A stretch of 54,877 nt of DNA, the filler included, from Malassezia furfur (Eukaryota): the NCBI GenBank assembly GCA_052055015.1. It is 2 parts of 2 records of this genome, joined end to end, with 100 filler letters (N's around TTAATTAATTAA, not from the genome) between each part and the next. Parts side by side here need not be neighbours in the genome. Positions count along the whole stretch, not along the records: positions 27,492 to 54,877 come from JBQJIT010000117.1; 1 more part is not named here. One strand, given 5' to 3'. The notes under the pieces were generated by a model. The model worked only from the letters and a program-made list of their open reading frames with translations, did not search any database and was not told where the DNA came from. The translations under genes were made by a program, and so were the position numbers. This document shows positions 6,326 to 45,587 of the stretch, piece after piece; positions within the stretch are counted from its first letter, which is position 1; each line of letters begins with the position of its first letter.

Positions 6326-6410
6326 CTTCCGCGCCGGGAATTGAACCCGGGTCTGGTCCGAACCAAGTCGTAATGACAAGGACCCGTCATAGCCACTAAA
6401 CTACGCAGAA
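6326..6410 (-). tRNA. tRNA-Asp(GTC) with 13-nt intron
   Basis: Acceptor stem TTCTGCG/CGCGGAA, anticodon stem GGTCC/GGACC, GTC anticodon 6375-6377, intron 6361-6373, GGTTCAATTCC T-arm, downstream oligo-T Pol III terminator. Confidence 0.93.
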
Positions 6411-39509: not shown

Positions 39510-41215
39510 ATGAACGTCGTAGTCTATACTGCTACTGCACTGCTCGGTGTGTGCATTCTGTGCATAGTCGGTGTATGTGTGCGTCTCCAACTGCGGTGGC
39601 GTGCGTGGCTCCGCGACGTTCCAGGGCCACAAGCCACGTCGTTCTGCTACGGCAACCTCTATGAGCTAATTTGCCGCGACGTGGTCCCTGTGTTTCTCGA
39701 GTGGAAAGCCACATACGGCGATGCGGTCCGCATCTGGGGAACGTTTGGCGTACGTGCGGTCTACTGACGCAGGAACCTCGGCTGGTGCTCACTGATCCTG
39801 TCGGCATTGACTACATTCTCCGAAAGCGCGCGTACGCCTACCCCAAGGTACGGATCGTGCGGCGAATGCTGGGAAAAGTCATGGGATATGGACTACTCGC
39901 CGTCGAGGGTGACGTCCATCGGCGGCAGAAACGCGCAATCCAACCGGGATTTTCCACGCGCTCAATCCGCAAACTCACACCACTCTTCCACCGGTACGCG
40001 CACAGACTCCGTGTGCAGCTTGCACGTCAGGTCGCTGACGAAGGAGCGCTCGTCGATCTGTACCGCTTTGTGGCCTGTGCAGCACTGGATGCCATCGGCT
40101 CTGCCGGCTTCAATGTCGAGTTTAACACGCTCGCACATACCGAGACGCAGACGGACGGGCAAGTGCACGTAGGTCACCCCTTGATTGTGGCATTTGAGCA
40201 CACGCTGGAGATCGCGACGGGCAACACGATGGCACGAAACCTGTTTGATGCCGTCACGATGGTCTTTCCGTGGCTCGAGCGGCTTCCCATTGGCGTTGAG
40301 TCCGGTCGGTTCCGCAAGGCCGCCGATGTCCTATTTCGGGTCGCCTCGGAGCTTGTCCAGGAAGCCAAGGATGCCGTACTGGGCCCTGCTTCTGCGTTGT
40401 ATCGCACGCGACCCAGTGCTGAGCGTCCCGATCTATTGGCGGCATTGCTGCGCGCCAACGCCAATATGACGCGCAATAATGACGAGAAGCACAGCGTACT
40501 GGACAAGACAGAGCTTTCGGACGACGAGTTGGCCGCGCAGCTCTCGACGTTCATATTTGCCGGGCACGAGACCACCGCGACGCAAACGACGTGGTTACTG
40601 TGGGCCTTAGCGCAGCATCCAGAAGCACAGGACAAGCTGCGCGCCGAGCTACGCGCGGCGCGGCGGGCGCACAACCTGGCGGAACAGAGCGAGTACGGCG
40701 CGTGCGACGAGCGACGTGACCTGACGATGGACGAGCTCGAGGCGCTGCCATATTTAGATGCGTGTGTGCGTGAGTCCTTGAGGCTGCACGGCGCGATTCA
40801 CACGACGTCGCGTATGGCGACTGAGCGCGATGTGGTGCCGTGTGCCGATGGGCGCCGCATCCTGGTCGACAAGGACACGGTGATCATGATCCCTCTCGCG
40901 GCAATCTCGCAGGACTCTGCGCTGTGGGGCGAGGATGCACACTGTTTCCGTCCCGAACGGTGGTTTGAAGAGATGCCCGGGAAGGACGTGTACAGCGCGT
41001 ACGGCGGCATTTCGTTCCTGCTCGGTGCGCACGCATGCATTGGACGGCAGTTTGCGACGGCTGAGATGAAGTCGTTTGTGAGTGTGTTGGTAAATGCACT
41101 GCGCTTTGTGTCGGATGGGCGGCGCACGATCGTCAAGCGGTGGATTGTGTCGCGCCCCTACGACCTGCGCACGCATCAGGACGCATGCATGTTGCGGGTG
41201 TGCCGTGCGCCATAG
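39510..41215 (+). CDS. Cytochrome P450 monooxygenase; 2 exons
   Basis: N-terminal TM plus PGP hinge, FAGHETT, ESLR, FRPERW, heme motif FLLGAHACIG; 23-nt intron 39750-39772. Confidence 0.93.
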
Positions 41216-41712: not shown

Positions 41713-44433
41713 CTATGTAGTCTGCTTCGACTCGCACGCCTCGCTCGCGTCTGCCCAGCCCTGCGGCGCAAAACTCCACACCCGCACGTCCCCGTCGTCG
41801 CTGCCACTCACCACCTTGTCGTCATCGAGGGCGATGCAGGTGACTGCTGCGCGGTGGCCGACAAGCGTGTTTTGACACTGCGCCGTGTCGCGGTCCCATA
41901 CCTTGACGGTGCGGTCGTGCGACGCCGAGACGATGCGCAGGGTGTCGACATCGACGCCCCACACCCCCTCGACATGCCCAAACAGCGTGCGGAAGCACTG
42001 CCCGGTGCGCACGTCCCAGAGCTTCAGTGTATTATCGAGTGAGCCAGAGACAAGCACCGGGCGCTTGCACTTGCTGCGTTTGGACGCGGCAGTGTGCGCC
42101 GTGTCGTGGGGTTGGAAGAGGCCGTCTTCGATGTCGTCGAGCGTCGCCGTCGCCGGCAACTGCGGCACGAGGCCCGCAGCGCTCAGCCGGCGCTGCGTCA
42201 GCGCCACCATCGGGGGAATGGTGCGTGCGTCGTCGCCTGTGCTGTGCGCATTGTCAGCAGGACGGTAGTAGAAGCGCTCGGGCAGCGCCGGCGCCGACGC
42301 ATTCGACACGTCGGCGTCCTGCGCGTTGCTCGGCGTGTAGCTGCAGCTTGCCGCCGAGCGGGCGGGCGGCGCCACTGGCGCGACGCTCTCCGTCTTGCTC
42401 GCCGTGGCAGTGCGCGAGCCGTCGGTGGCTGCCTCGCTCACGTCGGGGCGCGCGACATCGCTCGGCAGCGCCGCAGTGCCGCGGCTCAACTTCTCGACCG
42501 AGGCGCGGTCCATCATGACCAGCTTGAGCGACTGCACCTGGCCGACATGCCCACGGTACACGAGGATGCACTCGCGCGTCTGCAGGTCCCACAGCCGGAT
42601 CGTGCCGTCGTCCGACGCGCTAAACAAAAACATGGGCGGTGCGCAGCCCTTGCACGACGCGGGCGCCGACCAGAGCTGCACGGCATTCACCCAGTCGCGG
42701 TGGCCCTGCAACGAGTAGCACTCGCCCGTGTGGAAGTTCCAGATGCGGATGTTGCTGTCGGCGCTGCCACTGGCGAGCACCGACTCGTTAAAGTTGAGGC
42801 TCACGATGCCCTCGGTGTGCCCCTCGAGCGTGCGCAGCAGCTCGCCGGTGCGCCAGTTCCAAATCTTCAGGCTGCGGTCCATCGAACCGGTGATCAGCTT
42901 CACGTCGTCAAACTGAAGGCACCGCACGCCGCGGGCATGGCCTGTGAGCGTTCGGAGCACCTCGCCGGTGCGCATGTTCCACACCTTGATGGTCCGGTCG
43001 TAGCTGCCCGTGATCAGCACGGGGTACGGCAGGCCGCTCACCGTCTCGCGGAAGCTGAGGGACATGATCCCGTCGGTGTGGCCCTGCAAGAGACGCACCG
43101 AGTGCCGCCCGCGCCGCCAGTTGCGCTCGATCGCCAGGCGCTCGCAGTACACGGCCTTCCACGGGCGCGTCTTGTGCTTGTCGCGCGTCTCCGTCTCGCT
43201 ATGCTCCGAGCCTGAGTCGCGGTCGATGCGTCGCCGCTTGCTCGAGGCGCCTTCGTCGCCGCTGTGCGTCGACGCATACGAACTGCTCGGCGAGGACGAC
43301 GCGCGCGTGCGCCGTTCGATCGCCGCCGCGTTCGCCGCCGCGGTCACGGTGCGCCGCAGGCTGCCGTCGCCCGATGCGTGCGCAGCCGCACGGTACTCGT
43401 CGTCGTGCGCGAGGCCCATCAGCTCCGACTGGCTCAGCGCGTCGGGATTCTTGAGCCGGCGGCGCTCGGTGAGCAGCGGCAGGCCCCAGCCGCACTTTTC
43501 GCACTTGCGCTCAATGTGCTGCTCGCACATGTTGCGCCAGAGCAAATCGTTGTCGGCAAGCGTGCGCCACAGACGGCTGACCTGTGCGGCACGCCCGAGG
43601 CTGATGGCGTCCAGGTAGCCCAGCACACGCAGCGACACCTCGCGGGGGAACAGCGTGAATGGGTCGATGCGGATCGCCATCGTCAGCTCGGACGAAAGCA
43701 GCGACAGCTGGCTAAAGCAGCACATGGTCAAAATGCCCCGCAAAATCAGCGCACGCTGCGAGTGCGACGACGAGGAAAAAAGCGACCAGACCGTGTTGAC
43801 CGCGGTCTGCTCGGCCAGCGAGAGGGTATCAATTGACTGTGGTTAGTATGTGCCGACACATCTATAACTAGGGCCCGGCTTCGGACAGGCCCTAGCCTCA
43901 AACCGTGCGGTCTAAATCTGCTCTCGCACGGGGTAGTTCCGCCGCAGTCATGCTGCGGCGGCCGACGCTAGCCAGGCGCGTGGGATGCGGCGCCCGGCTA
44001 CGGCAGCCCCTGCGGACCACACGGTCGAGGAAAAGGGTGCACGTACCTTTTGTAGTCGTGCCGTAGCATCCTCGTCGGCCATGCGCTGATGGCGCACACA
44101 CAGCTTCTCGGAGCGCGACAGCAACGGCGAAATCACGCTGCTGCACTCTTGCTTGTCGCGTGACGTCGACGCGGCATTCTCGCCGTCGCCGTGGACCGCC
44201 TCGTTGTGAACAAAGCCATGGGCTTTGAGCGCCGCCTCTTTTTTCTCTTCGTCGGAAGGCGCTACGCTCGGCCCGGCCACAGCATCGCGCGAGGAGCCCG
44301 CTTTGCGTGCATCCGATGGCGATGCAGATGCGTCGACCGGCGCCGCCTCTGCCGACACCTGCTTGTGCGCTTCGACTAGCGCGCGGCTGACAGTGTCTTG
44401 CGAAGAACTTGGATCAATATGGTCTGGTACCAT
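41713..44433 (-). CDS. MET30: F-box/WD40 sulfur-metabolite repressor Met30/SconB/Scon-2; 2 exons
   Basis: LCVRHQRMAD, LWRNMCEQHIERKCEKCGWGLPLL, TRPWKAVYCER, LFGHVEGVW; 210-nt intron 43837-44046. Confidence 0.93.
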
Positions 44434-44777: not shown

Positions 44778-45587
44778 TTAGGCAGTGGCCTCCTTCGCGC
44801 TCTTACCCGACTTGCGCTCAAGCAGCGCAGTGCTATCGGTTAGAACATGACCAAGCGAGGCAATACGTACCGGTCCTTGTCCATCTTGATCTTGGTGATC
44901 ACCACGTTCGACGGGTGGATGGGGATCGCGACAGTGGCGCCGTTCACCTTCTCGCGCTGGAGACGCTCGAGGTGCACAACCCACTTCTTGCGGTAGACCT
45001 GCACAACGCGGCCCTCAGAGCCGACCGACGAGCCACGCACAACGACGACCTCGTCGTCCTTGCGGATGGGGAGCGAGCGGATCTGCAGGGTTAGTAACTG
45101 CATCACAAGGGAACAGTCAAAACAGCCAAGGGGGACGCGGAATCTGGGAGGCACGACCGTCACTTTAAGGGCAAAAATGGTGCACAGCAGTTAGTGGCAA
45201 GTCAAGGTCATGGAAACGTGCGTATTCTCAGCTCATCCGATGCATAGCGCATGATGAGAGATGAATTCGCATAACCAAGAAAAATTGACCACAGCACTCG
45301 GATGTCACACGAATTAGCGACACAATGATGTTCACAATGGCTGCACATATGCTGCAATACCATGTAGGTGTGCACAGAAGCCATCCCAATTCCATACTCG
45401 CACAAGCGACATAGGTCCTCTAGAGACCACCTTCGCACGCCCCTTGACTGCTTCGACCGTTAGTTGTACGTACGCCGTGCTCCTTGCGCAGCTCCTTGTT
45501 CAGAGGAGCCGACATGATCTTCCTCCTGATGTGGCCCGGGGCATCGAAGTGGGCCTTGCGGTTGACACGACGCGAGGAGCTGACCAT
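44778..45587 (-). CDS. RPL26: 60S ribosomal protein L26 (uL24); 3 exons
   Basis: [45 protein letters not shown]; introns 45083-45473 (391 nt) and 44833-44870. Confidence 0.96.

What the first reader, a model, noticed from the sequence alone, without database searches (positions are those of the whole stretch)
43837..44046. Hairpin-tiled long intron in the sulfur regulator MET30 with competing pairings over its splice signals (candidate splicing switch)
Seen: this intron is 210 nt while most here are 22-40 nt. It is nearly tiled by stems: ctagggcc/ggccctag (43868-43895), ccgtgcg/cgcacgg (43903-43931), a perfect 9-bp ccgccgcag/ctgcggcgg (43939-43961), tagcc..ggcg/cgcc..ggcta (43969-44000) and gacc/ggtc (44016-44027). 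On the sense strand the donor GUACGUGC (44046-44039) can pair 7/8 with GCACAUAC (43853-43846), which abuts the CUAAC branch point. The same GCACAU can instead pair locally with AUGUGU (43861-43856), so the two folds exclude each other. A proximal CAG lies 37 nt in (44010), and intron retention truncates the protein before the F-box (stop 43948). Known: Met30/SconB/Scon-2 F-box proteins control sulfur amino-acid genes, and fungal TPP riboswitches act by occluding splice sites. Inference: a SAM/Met/Cys-responsive or protein-responsive splicing element, an intronic small RNA, or a scaffold that shortens the intron for a short-intron spliceosome.
Basis: partly seen in the sequence, partly recalled or inferred. 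Interest (0 to 1): 0.75.

Follow-up and report, generated by a model that had tools for sequence, protein, structure and literature searches.

The report
Intron-hosted H/ACA snoRNA in MET30
The unusually long, hairpin-filled intron of this Malassezia MET30 gene is long because it carries a small nucleolar RNA that most likely guides one pseudouridine in large-subunit ribosomal RNA, which is an ordinary arrangement, not a sulfur-sensing splicing switch.

Summary
A 210-nt GT-AG intron (44046..43837, minus strand) splits a MET30/SconB-type F-box/WD40 gene, and it folds far better than shuffles (z -5.17).

The intron consists of a 33-nt 5' flank, a 168-nt box H/ACA snoRNA (44013..43846) and a 9-nt 3' flank. 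Rfam gives one family, SNORA9, full length (33.8 bits; E 1.9e-5 locally, 3.2e-3 window-wide; below the curated cut-off of 85). Both guide strands of the 3' pocket are identical to the SNORA9 consensus.

Five distinct orthologous introns from metagenome contigs (216-409 nt) carry the same element. It has an ANANNA H box and an ACA box exactly 14 nt from the upper stem in 6 of 6. The pocket strands are invariant and the stems covary.

The pocket strands are complementary to CUAU-UC-UCAAAC in a published 28S rRNA primer.

The donor/branch-site pairing proposed as a switch is not conserved in relatives, and no riboswitch family matches.

Verdict: a new member of a known kind. No RNA data or rDNA were available here.

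The parts
44047..44433 (-). Exon 1 of the MET30/SconB-like gene (129 codons, ends ...ARLQK)
   Evidence: Translation. The C-terminal part LCVRHQRMADEDATARLQK is shared with annotated Malassezia proteins P0002, P0004, P0005, P0008 and P0009. No Pfam family.
43837..44046 (-). 210-nt phase-0 spliceosomal intron (GUACGU ... UACUAAC ... CAG)
   Evidence: An intron at the same position is present in 43 of the 44 related loci in which the exon-1 motif could be found.
43846..44013 (-). Predicted mature box H/ACA snoRNA, 168 nt (ends inferred, not measured)
   Evidence: Rfam SNORA9 hit 43955..43846. The 5' end is set by the P1 helix shared with the orthologues. The 3' end is set as ACA+3.
44007..44013 (-). 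P1 helix, 5' strand (GCAGGGG). It closes the 5' domain and pairs with 43933-43926.
   Evidence: Constrained folds of 5 of 5 Malassezia-like orthologues close the 5' domain with this helix. Relatives have GCAUGC/GCAUGC, so two positions changed on both sides.
43969..44000 (-). Hairpin A of the 5' domain (10-bp stem, 12-nt loop)
   Evidence: An equivalent long hairpin with different sequence is present in L001, L005, L007 and L009.
43939..43961 (-). Hairpin B of the 5' domain (perfect 9-bp stem, 5-nt loop). Its base lies 14 nt before the H box.
   Evidence: An equivalent short hairpin is present in L001, L005, L007 and L009.
43926..43933 (-). P1 helix, 3' strand (CCCCGUGC, one bulged G)
   Evidence: It aligns with the ..UGC N AGANNA stretch of the SNORA9 consensus.
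43919..43924 (-). H box AGAGCA (ANANNA)
   Evidence: An ANANNA at the equivalent place in 6 of 6 sequences. It aligns to the SNORA9 H box.
43853..43910 (-). 3' hairpin: lower stem CCGCAC (43910-43905) with GUGuCGG (43859-43853), then the pocket, then the upper stem 43897-43866
   Evidence: The lower stem shows G-C to A-U or U-A exchanges on both sides in the orthologues.
43898..43904 (-). Pocket 5' strand GGUUUGA (guide)
   Evidence: GTTTGA is invariant in 6 of 6 and identical to the SNORA9 consensus. It is complementary to UCAAAC(U) of the 28S primer sequence.
43860..43865 (-). Pocket 3' strand AUAGAU (guide)
   Evidence: TATA is invariant in 6 of 6 and ATAGA is present in 5 of 6. It is identical to the SNORA9 consensus. 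AUAG is complementary to CUAU of the 28S primer sequence.
43846..43851 (-). ACA box (43851-43849) plus 3-nt tail UAC
   Evidence: ACA lies exactly 14 nt from the 3' base of the upper stem in 6 of 6 and is invariant in alignment A1.
43842..43848 (-). Branch-site heptamer UACUAAC. Its first three bases are the predicted 3' tail of the snoRNA. The 3' splice site CAG is at 43839-43837.
   Evidence: In the relatives the spacing from ACA+3 to the 3' splice site is 21-129 nt, against 9 nt here.
41713..43836 (-). Exon 2 (F-box plus WD40 propeller, stop UAG at 41715-41713)
   Evidence: Pfam F-box-like PF12937, E 1.4e-13, and WD40 PF00400, E 2.5e-51. The relatives are named 'related to MET30' or 'sconB'.

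Best explanation
The intron hosts a box H/ACA small nucleolar RNA of about 168 nt (44013..43846, minus strand), a distant counterpart of human SNORA9/ACA9.

Shown here:
- The architecture: a 5' domain closed by a helix next to an ANANNA H box, then a 3' hairpin with lower stem, open pocket and upper stem, then an ACA box 14 nt from the upper stem.
- The pocket strands are conserved while the stems covary in five other species.
- The two pocket strands are complementary to CUAU-UC-UCAAAC(U) of large-subunit rRNA.

Inferred from what is established for intronic H/ACA snoRNAs:
- The RNA is transcribed as part of the MET30 pre-mRNA.
- Cbf5/dyskerin, Nop10, Nhp2 and Gar1 assemble on it.
- The intron is spliced out, debranched and trimmed by exonucleases down to the protein-protected RNA.
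- The 3' pocket then pairs with LSU rRNA and Cbf5 converts the first unpaired U (CUAU-U*-C-UCAAAC) to pseudouridine.

The 5' domain has no conserved guide strands and probably serves only in particle assembly. The hairpins that 'tile' the intron are simply the helices of this RNA. Without the snoRNA the intron would be 42 nt, close to the size usual here.
For: (1) Rfam: SNORA9 (RF00411) is the only significant family on the intron. It matches on the sense strand over the full model, at 33.8 bits, with E 5.3e-5 in 901 nt, 1.9e-5 in 321 nt and 3.2e-3 over the whole 54.9-kb window. At E<=0.1 the only other hit in the window is a tRNA. The alignment shows GGUUUGAGGC and GUUAUAGA identical to the consensus pocket strands, plus the H box and ACA.

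(2) An orthologous intron gives the same best family independently: L005, 24.4 bits, E 0.0039, full model, with the P1 helix at both ends of a long insertion.

(3) Orthologues: of the 71 MET30 loci from metagenome contigs, 9 carry the element (5 distinct sequences: L001-4, L005/6, L007, L009, L012). It is always inside this intron. The pattern occurs once in the window, and 0 of 100 shuffles had a match.

(4) Geometry: in 6 of 6 sequences the base of the upper stem is 14 nt from ACA, and an ANANNA box lies in the hinge.

(5) Covariation: RNAalifold on the 3' half gives 18 pairs, 5 of them with changes on both sides. The two pairs at the base of the upper stem switch between G-U/G-U (window, L005) and A-U/G-C (L001, L007, L009, L012). 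GTTTGA, TATA and ACA are invariant.

(6) With boxes and pocket strands held open, 5 of 5 Malassezia-like sequences fold into the same P1 / hairpin A / hairpin B / hinge / 3' hairpin architecture, although their sequences differ.

(7) The near-identical pair L007 and L009 differ at 11 places. Three are in stems and all three keep the pair; 8 are unpaired; none is in a pocket strand or a fixed box position.

(8) Target: the published sense-strand 28S rRNA primer 28S4.8a/Rd4.8a reads ACCTATTCTCAAACTTTAAATGG (passages of PMC7596027 and PMC3691250). AUAG of the 3' strand pairs with CUAU. GGUUUGA of the 5' strand pairs with UCAAACU. Two bases, UC, are left unpaired, as in H/ACA guide-target duplexes. 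Human SNORA9 is assigned to 28S-U1670 and 28S-U1769 (supplementary table of PMC6984369).

(9) Size: introns at this position are 49-157 nt in the 34 loci without the element and 216-409 nt in the 9 with it.
Against: - The Rfam score (33.8 bits) is far below the curated gathering score (85).
- When six whole related loci (23,366 nt) were scanned, nothing reached E<=0.1.
- The L007 hit on its own is not significant (10.9 bits, E 7.4).
The RNA, its ends and its stability are therefore inferred.
- No genome is held, so the organism's own rDNA was not checked. The target match rests on a metazoan 28S primer, and the target numbering is not verified.
- Which SNORA9 hairpin guides which human site is not given in the table I saw.
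- The unconstrained MFE fold pairs the guide strands into a long helix and is 10.5 kcal/mol better than the H/ACA-compatible fold (-106.4 against -95.9).
- The 5' domain is atypical: two internal hairpins and no conserved pocket.
- Only five distinct orthologues were found, two of them near-identical, so the covariation counts carry little statistical weight.
Confidence: 0.9

Rival explanations
1. Splicing switch. Alternative helices over the 5' splice site and the branch site are selected by SAM, methionine, cysteine or a protein. This would set the ratio of spliced MET30 mRNA to an intron-retaining form that truncates before the F-box.
For: The donor GUACGUGC can pair with GCACAUAC next to the branch site (-8.5 kcal/mol; present in the centroid fold). 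L005 can form a weaker version (-4.5). Retention would meet a stop at 43950-43948. The host gene regulates sulfur metabolism (names).
Against: The pairing is weak or absent in L001, L007, L009 and L012 (-1.0 to -3.0 kcal/mol). No riboswitch or other cis-regulatory family matches at E<=10. Every stem and every conserved block is accounted for by the snoRNA. GCACAUAC contains the ACA box, which explains its conservation. The ccgtgcg/cgcacgg stem would enclose the H box, excludes both P1 and the lower stem, and has no counterpart in the relatives (sequences).
Confidence: 0.03
2. A snoRNA that also acts in cis. Because the predicted snoRNA tail (ACA-UAC) is the start of the branch-site heptamer UACUAAC, H/ACA protein assembly and branch-site recognition would compete. 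MET30 output would then depend on snoRNP assembly.
For: The overlap of the ACA+3 tail with UACUAAC, and only 9 nt from the snoRNA end to the 3' splice site.
Against: The overlap is special to this species. The relatives keep 21-129 nt between ACA+3 and the 3' splice site, so it looks like intron compaction and not a conserved device. No expression data.
Confidence: 0.08
3. An H/ACA RNA with a different job: an orphan, an snRNA guide (scaRNA-like), or a processing snoRNA, and not an rRNA pseudouridylation guide.
For: The organism's rRNA could not be inspected. The 5' domain has no conserved guide.
Against: The pocket strands are identical to those of SNORA9, an rRNA guide. They match a universally conserved 28S segment, with the usual two unpaired bases and the 14-nt spacing.
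Confidence: 0.04
4. Neutral GC-rich intron whose hairpins have no function.
For: GC is 0.61 in the window. The antisense strand also folds better than shuffles (z -3.24).
Against: Conserved blocks and compensatory changes across five other species whose intron sequence is otherwise unalignable. The Rfam match. Introns with the element are about 160 nt longer than those without.
Confidence: 0.01

Closest known systems
Human SNORA9 / ACA9 (Rfam RF00411), box H/ACA snoRNA assigned to 28S-U1670 and 28S-U1769
   Same: The hairpin-hinge-hairpin-tail plan. The P1 3' strand ..UGC, one base, then H box AGANNA. The 3' pocket strands GGUUUGAGG and UUAUAGA are identical. ACA sits at the same spacing. It aligns over the full model. 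The target assignment comes from the supplementary table of PMC6984369.
   Different: Only 33.8 bits against a cut-off of 85. The 5' domain is about twice as long (81 nt inside P1 in L005 against 43 in the model), Y-shaped, and without a conserved guide. The host is a protein-coding regulator gene.
Fungal intron-encoded snoRNAs, e.g. H/ACA snR191 in the NOG2 intron and C/D snR59 in the RPL7 intron, reported also for Malassezia sympodialis (PMC8476143, passages read)
   Same: In intron-poor fungi the retained, conserved introns can be explained by an embedded snoRNA that is processed from the spliced intron.
   Different: Different host gene (MET30, not a ribosome-biogenesis gene), different snoRNA and different target. 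The MET30 case is not mentioned in the passages I read.
Yeast snR82 (recalled from memory as the guide for the equivalent 25S site, psi-1110; not confirmed by any search)
   Same: It would guide the same conserved LSU position, if my recollection of the site equivalence is right.
   Different: The fungal snoRNAome paper calls the snR82 family Saccharomycotina-specific (passage of PMC5824354). Rfam matched SNORA9 here, not snR82.
Fungal TPP riboswitches that control alternative splicing
   Same: A structured RNA inside an intron, with helices that touch the splice signals.
   Different: No aptamer family match. The competing helices are not conserved. The conserved parts are snoRNA boxes and guide strands.

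Membership tests
Box H/ACA snoRNA (class) | Hairpin-hinge-hairpin-tail secondary structure | tested here: met
   With boxes and pocket held open, 5 of 5 Malassezia-like sequences give a 5' domain closed by P1, a single-stranded hinge, a 3' hairpin and a tail. The 5' domain is branched, which is atypical.
Box H/ACA snoRNA (class) | H box ANANNA in the hinge | tested here: met
   AGAGCA in the window. An ANANNA at the equivalent place in 6 of 6. The only change between L007 and L009 in the box is at an N position.
Box H/ACA snoRNA (class) | ACA box three nucleotides from the mature 3' end | tested here: inconclusive
   ACA is invariant and correctly placed after the 3' hairpin in 6 of 6. The real 3' end could not be measured because RNA reads were not available.
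Box H/ACA snoRNA (class) | Pseudouridylation pocket whose two strands pair with the target around an unpaired U-N, 14-16 nt from the H or ACA box | tested here: met
   The spacing is 14 nt in 6 of 6. The strands are complementary to CUAU / UCAAACU, flanking UC, in the published 28S primer sequence. The organism's own rDNA was not available.
Box H/ACA snoRNA (class) | Stable RNA bound by Cbf5, Nop10, Nhp2 and Gar1 | not testable with these tools
   No expression or binding data.
Rfam RF00411 SNORA9 | Score at or above the curated gathering threshold (85 bits) | tested here: not met
   33.8 bits (window), 24.4 bits (L005) and 10.9 bits (L007). The E-values are significant for the window and L005 only. 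I therefore call it a distant counterpart that works like SNORA9's 3' hairpin, not a formal family member.
Rfam RF00411 SNORA9 | Same guide sequences in the 3' hairpin | tested here: met
   GGUUUGAGGC and GUUAUAGA are identical to the consensus.
Riboswitch-type splicing switch | Conserved ligand-binding aptamer | tested here: not met
   No such family at E<=10 on either strand.
Riboswitch-type splicing switch | Mutually exclusive helices over the splice signals, conserved in relatives | tested here: not met
   The donor/ACA-region duplex is -8.5 kcal/mol in the window and -4.5, -3.0, -2.6, -2.2 and -1.0 in the five relatives.
MET30 / SconB F-box protein (host gene) | F-box followed by a WD40 propeller, with orthology to named MET30/sconB proteins | tested here: met
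   PF12937 E 1.4e-13 and WD40 E 2.5e-51. The best named relatives are Malassezia F-box proteins, then Ustilago 'related to MET30' and 'sconB'. Function was not tested.

The most novel reading that the evidence does not exclude
In this species the intron has shrunk until the snoRNA's ACA+3 tail is itself the first half of the branch-site heptamer (ACA-UAC-UAAC). Loading of H/ACA proteins on the nascent intron would then compete directly with branch-site recognition. The amount of SCF-Met30 made would be tied to snoRNP assembly capacity, giving a cis link between ribosome biogenesis and sulfur/SAM control.
Probability: 0.07. Interest if true: 0.55.

Novelty: new member of a known kind. Interest (0 to 1): 0.27.

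Why it matters
It explains an outlier without any new mechanism. In a genome whose introns are mostly 20-40 nt, a 210-nt intron is retained because it carries a pseudouridylation guide.

It adds a probably unannotated H/ACA snoRNA to Malassezia. Annotation pipelines that apply Rfam's curated cut-off would miss it at 33.8 bits.

It shows that MET30 has been this snoRNA's host across several Malassezia-like lineages.

It warns that 'hairpin-tiled' introns in compact genomes should be tested for snoRNAs before regulatory switches are proposed.

The snoRNA end overlapping the branch site is a small curiosity for people who study intronic snoRNP processing.

Tried and rejected
- Whole genome of the window: not held. 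The organism's rDNA and a genome-wide intron census were therefore impossible.
- Rfam on six whole related loci (23,366 nt): no hit at E<=0.1. Short scans then gave SNORA9 for L005 (E 0.0039). For L007 the hit was not significant (E 7.4).
- Covariance model R1 was built from the six 3' halves. I searched it over 64 of 72 sources (331,889 nt). The eight left out were the duplicates L002-L004, L006, L019 and L063-L065. Only the six training sequences matched at E<=10. No diverged copy was found near MET30 in the other basidiomycete loci, nor in L008, which lacks the intron.
- Literature:
  - snR82 together with SNORA9: 0 papers.
  - MET30 + snoRNA + intron: 2 papers, both irrelevant by title and abstract.
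  - Malassezia + snoRNA + intron: 11 papers. Only PMC8476143 deals with intronic snoRNAs in M. sympodialis (RPL7, NOG2), and I read passages of it only.
  - 'The fungal snoRNAome' (PMC5824354): its main text has 0 mentions of Malassezia or SNORA9, and its supplements could not be read. They may list the fungal family for this LSU site.
  - rRNA-lettered target strings: 0 papers.
- A conserved guide in the 5' domain: rejected. The single-stranded linkers differ completely between species.
- Earlier scan notes: nothing on this genome or sequence. Only analogous cases in other compact genomes turned up.
Full report
**What is there**

The finding lies on the minus strand, in a two-exon gene.
- Exon 1 runs 44433..44047 and ends ...CVRHQRMADEDATARLQK.
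- Exon 2 runs 43836..41713 and begins SIDTLSLAEQTAVNTVW.
- Exon 2 carries an F-box (PF12937, E 1.4e-13) and a WD40 propeller.
- Its best named relatives are Malassezia F-box proteins (M. yamatoensis, 84% identity over the region searched). Next come Ustilaginomycotina proteins named 'related to MET30' and basidiomycete 'sconB' proteins.
- Annotated proteins of five Malassezia relatives read straight through K|S. The 210 nt between the exons (GUACGU ... UACUAAC ...

**Check of the observation**

- The sense strand folds at -106.4 kcal/mol, against -82.9 +/- 4.5 for 200 dinucleotide shuffles (z -5.17, none as good).
- The antisense strand is less exceptional (z -3.24).
- A crude census of compact GTRHGT..CTRAY..YAG elements finds 15 of 20-39 nt, where shuffles give about 2.3. 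A review states that Malassezia introns are very short (passage of PMC7426719). The intron is therefore an outlier.
- It is not the only one: the neighbouring RPL26 gene has a 38-nt and a 391-nt intron.

**What it is**

A scan of the region against Rfam returns one meaningful family. It is SNORA9 (RF00411), a box H/ACA snoRNA, matched on the sense strand at 43955..43846 over the full model.
- The score is 33.8 bits. E is 5.3e-5 in 901 nt, 1.9e-5 in 321 nt and 3.2e-3 over the whole window.
- This is well below Rfam's curated 85 bits, so it is a distant relative and not a formal member.
- The alignment is informative all the same. The two single-stranded sides of the 3' pocket (GGUUUGAGGC and GUUAUAGA) are letter-for-letter the consensus. 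The H box and the ACA box are in register.

**Relatives**

The N-terminal part of exon 2 retrieved 71 MET30 loci from metagenome contigs.
- I tested 68 loci, leaving out L051, L069 and L071, whose matches did not begin at the start of exon 2. In 44 of the 68 the exon-1 motif could be found upstream.
- Of those 44, 43 have a GT-started intron at exactly this position and one (L008) has none. The intron is therefore old in Basidiomycota.
- It is 49-157 nt long in 34 loci and 216-409 nt long in 9.
- Those nine are L001-4 (identical), L005/6 (identical), L007, L009 and L012, giving five distinct sequences at 87-90% protein identity to the window.
- They are exactly the loci that contain the pattern GTTTGARG..YTATAR..ACA, and always inside this intron.
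- The pattern occurs once in the window. None of 100 shuffles had a match.
- A covariance model of the 3' half found no diverged copy in the other 58 sources.

**Anatomy across the six sequences**

- In 6 of 6 the 3' base of the upper stem is exactly 14 nt from ACA, and an ANANNA box lies in the hinge.
- GTTTGA, TATA and ACA are invariant, while the rest of the introns is barely alignable (43% mean column identity).
- RNAalifold on the 3' half gives 18 pairs, 5 of them with changes on both sides. Three of these are in the lower stem (G-C to A-U or U-A).
- The two pairs at the base of the upper stem switch between G-U/G-U and A-U/G-C. That exchange fixes the pocket as GUUUGA on the 5' side and AUAGA on the 3' side.
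- When boxes and pocket strands are held open, all five Malassezia-like sequences fold the same way. A helix P1 next to the H box closes a 5' domain that holds one long and one short hairpin. A hinge follows, then the 3' hairpin and the tail.
- P1 itself covaries: GCAUGC/GCAUGC in the relatives, GCAGGGG/CCCCgUGC in the window.
- L005's intron independently gives SNORA9 as its best Rfam family (24.4 bits, E 0.0039), with P1 at both ends of a long insertion. L007 gives the same family but not significantly (E 7.4). A scan of six whole loci found nothing at E<=0.1.
- The close pair L007 and L009 differ at 11 sites. Three are in stems and all keep the pair; eight are unpaired; none is in a pocket strand.

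In the window this gives the following:

| Part | Coordinates (minus strand) |
|---|---|
| 5' flank | 33 nt |
| snoRNA (168 nt) | 44013..43846 |
| P1 helix | 44013-44007 with 43933-43926 |
| Hairpin A | 44000-43969 |
| Hairpin B | 43961-43939 |
| H box AGAGCA | 43924-43919 |
| Lower stem | 43910-43905 with 43859-43853 |
| Pocket strands | 43904-43898 and 43865-43860 |
| Upper stem | 43897-43866 |
| ACA box | 43851-43849 |
| Tail | to 43846 |
| 3' flank | 9 nt |

The gacc/ggtc hairpin lies in the 5' flank. The ccgtgcg/cgcacgg stem would compete with P1 and the lower stem, and it has no counterpart in the relatives.

**How it most likely works**

The pocket strands specify a target of the form CUAU-U-N-UCAAAC.
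- The published sense-strand 28S rRNA primer 28S4.8a/Rd4.8a reads ACCTATTCTCAAACTTTAAATGG (passages of PMC7596027 and PMC3691250).
- AUAG pairs with CUAU and GGUUUGA pairs with UCAAACU. UC is left unpaired, the usual H/ACA geometry, with the 14-nt spacing to ACA.
- Human SNORA9 is assigned to 28S-U1670 and 28S-U1769 (supplementary table of PMC6984369).
- I recall, but could not confirm by any search, that U1769 lies in this segment and corresponds to yeast 25S psi-1110.
- The rest is inferred from what is established for intronic H/ACA snoRNAs: co-transcriptional binding of Cbf5, Nop10, Nhp2 and Gar1, then splicing, debranching, exonucleolytic trimming, and isomerisation of the unpaired U.
- The 5' domain has no conserved guide strands. 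It probably serves assembly only.

The donor/GCACAUAC duplex is real in the window (-8.5 kcal/mol). It drops to -4.5 (L005) and to -1.0 to -3.0 in the other four relatives. GCACAUAC contains the ACA box, which explains why it is there. No riboswitch family matches. I therefore give the switch about 3%.

One feature is special to this species. ACA+3 (ACA-UAC) runs into the branch heptamer UACUAAC, leaving 9 nt to the 3' splice site, where the relatives keep 21-129 nt. This is most simply extreme intron compaction. A cis competition between snoRNP assembly and branch-site recognition is possible, but nothing supports it (about 7%).

**Limits**

- No genome and no RNA reads were available. The RNA's existence, its ends and the organism's own target sequence are inferred.
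- The unconstrained MFE pairs the guide strands and is 10.5 kcal/mol better than the H/ACA-compatible fold. That is expected for a naked RNA in silico, but it is not evidence for the snoRNP fold.
- There are only five distinct orthologues.
- Searches for a prior description found none. I read passages of PMC8476143 and PMC5824354 only, and the latter's supplements could not be read.

**Verdict**

This is an intron-encoded box H/ACA snoRNA, a distant counterpart of SNORA9, hosted in MET30 across Malassezia-like lineages. It is a new member of a known kind and of modest interest.

Noticed in passing
window 45083-45473 (minus strand): The RPL26 gene just upstream has a 391-nt first intron (GUACGU...UUACUAAC..CAG) beside a 38-nt second intron (44870-44833). 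It folds with z -4.46 (390 of the 391 nt, 0 of 100 shuffles as good). No Rfam family matches on the sense strand at E<=10, and a crude scan found no C/D box pair and only one weak H/ACA-like arrangement. It may host an unrecognised small RNA.
   Followed up: partly
window 45247-45273 (plus strand): A C-box-like GCGCAUGAUGAGAG motif lies antisense to the RPL26 intron. It gives a weak, non-significant match to the archaeal C/D family sR41 (10 bits, E 7.5).
   Followed up: no
window 6326-6410 (minus strand): The only other Rfam hit in the window at E<=0.1 is a tRNA (45.6 bits). It spans 85 nt against a 71-position model, so it may contain an intron or a long variable arm.
   Followed up: no
L008:226-660: A relative at 81% identity has no intron at the otherwise conserved LQK|SI position, and no copy of the snoRNA within the 3.6 kb held. 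Its snoRNA, if it has one, must lie elsewhere.
   Followed up: partly
L012:192-600: A more distant relative (87% identity in the exon-2 start) has a 409-nt intron. It carries the same 3' hairpin and ACA box but has a very different, longer 5' part and 129 nt between ACA+3 and the 3' splice site. Its 5' helix could not be assigned.
   Followed up: partly
proteins P0001, P0007, P0012, P0016: Public prokaryote-style gene calls for this gene and its orthologues start at an internal Met of exon 2 or translate the last codons of the intron (for example MLEYLHIQ|SID...). Exon 1 is missing from many database entries.
   Followed up: no
window 39665-41215 (plus strand): A long open frame ending with an FxxGxxxCxG-type motif (FLLGAHACIG) looks like a cytochrome P450. 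It converges on the 3' end of the MET30 gene. It was not analysed.
   Followed up: no
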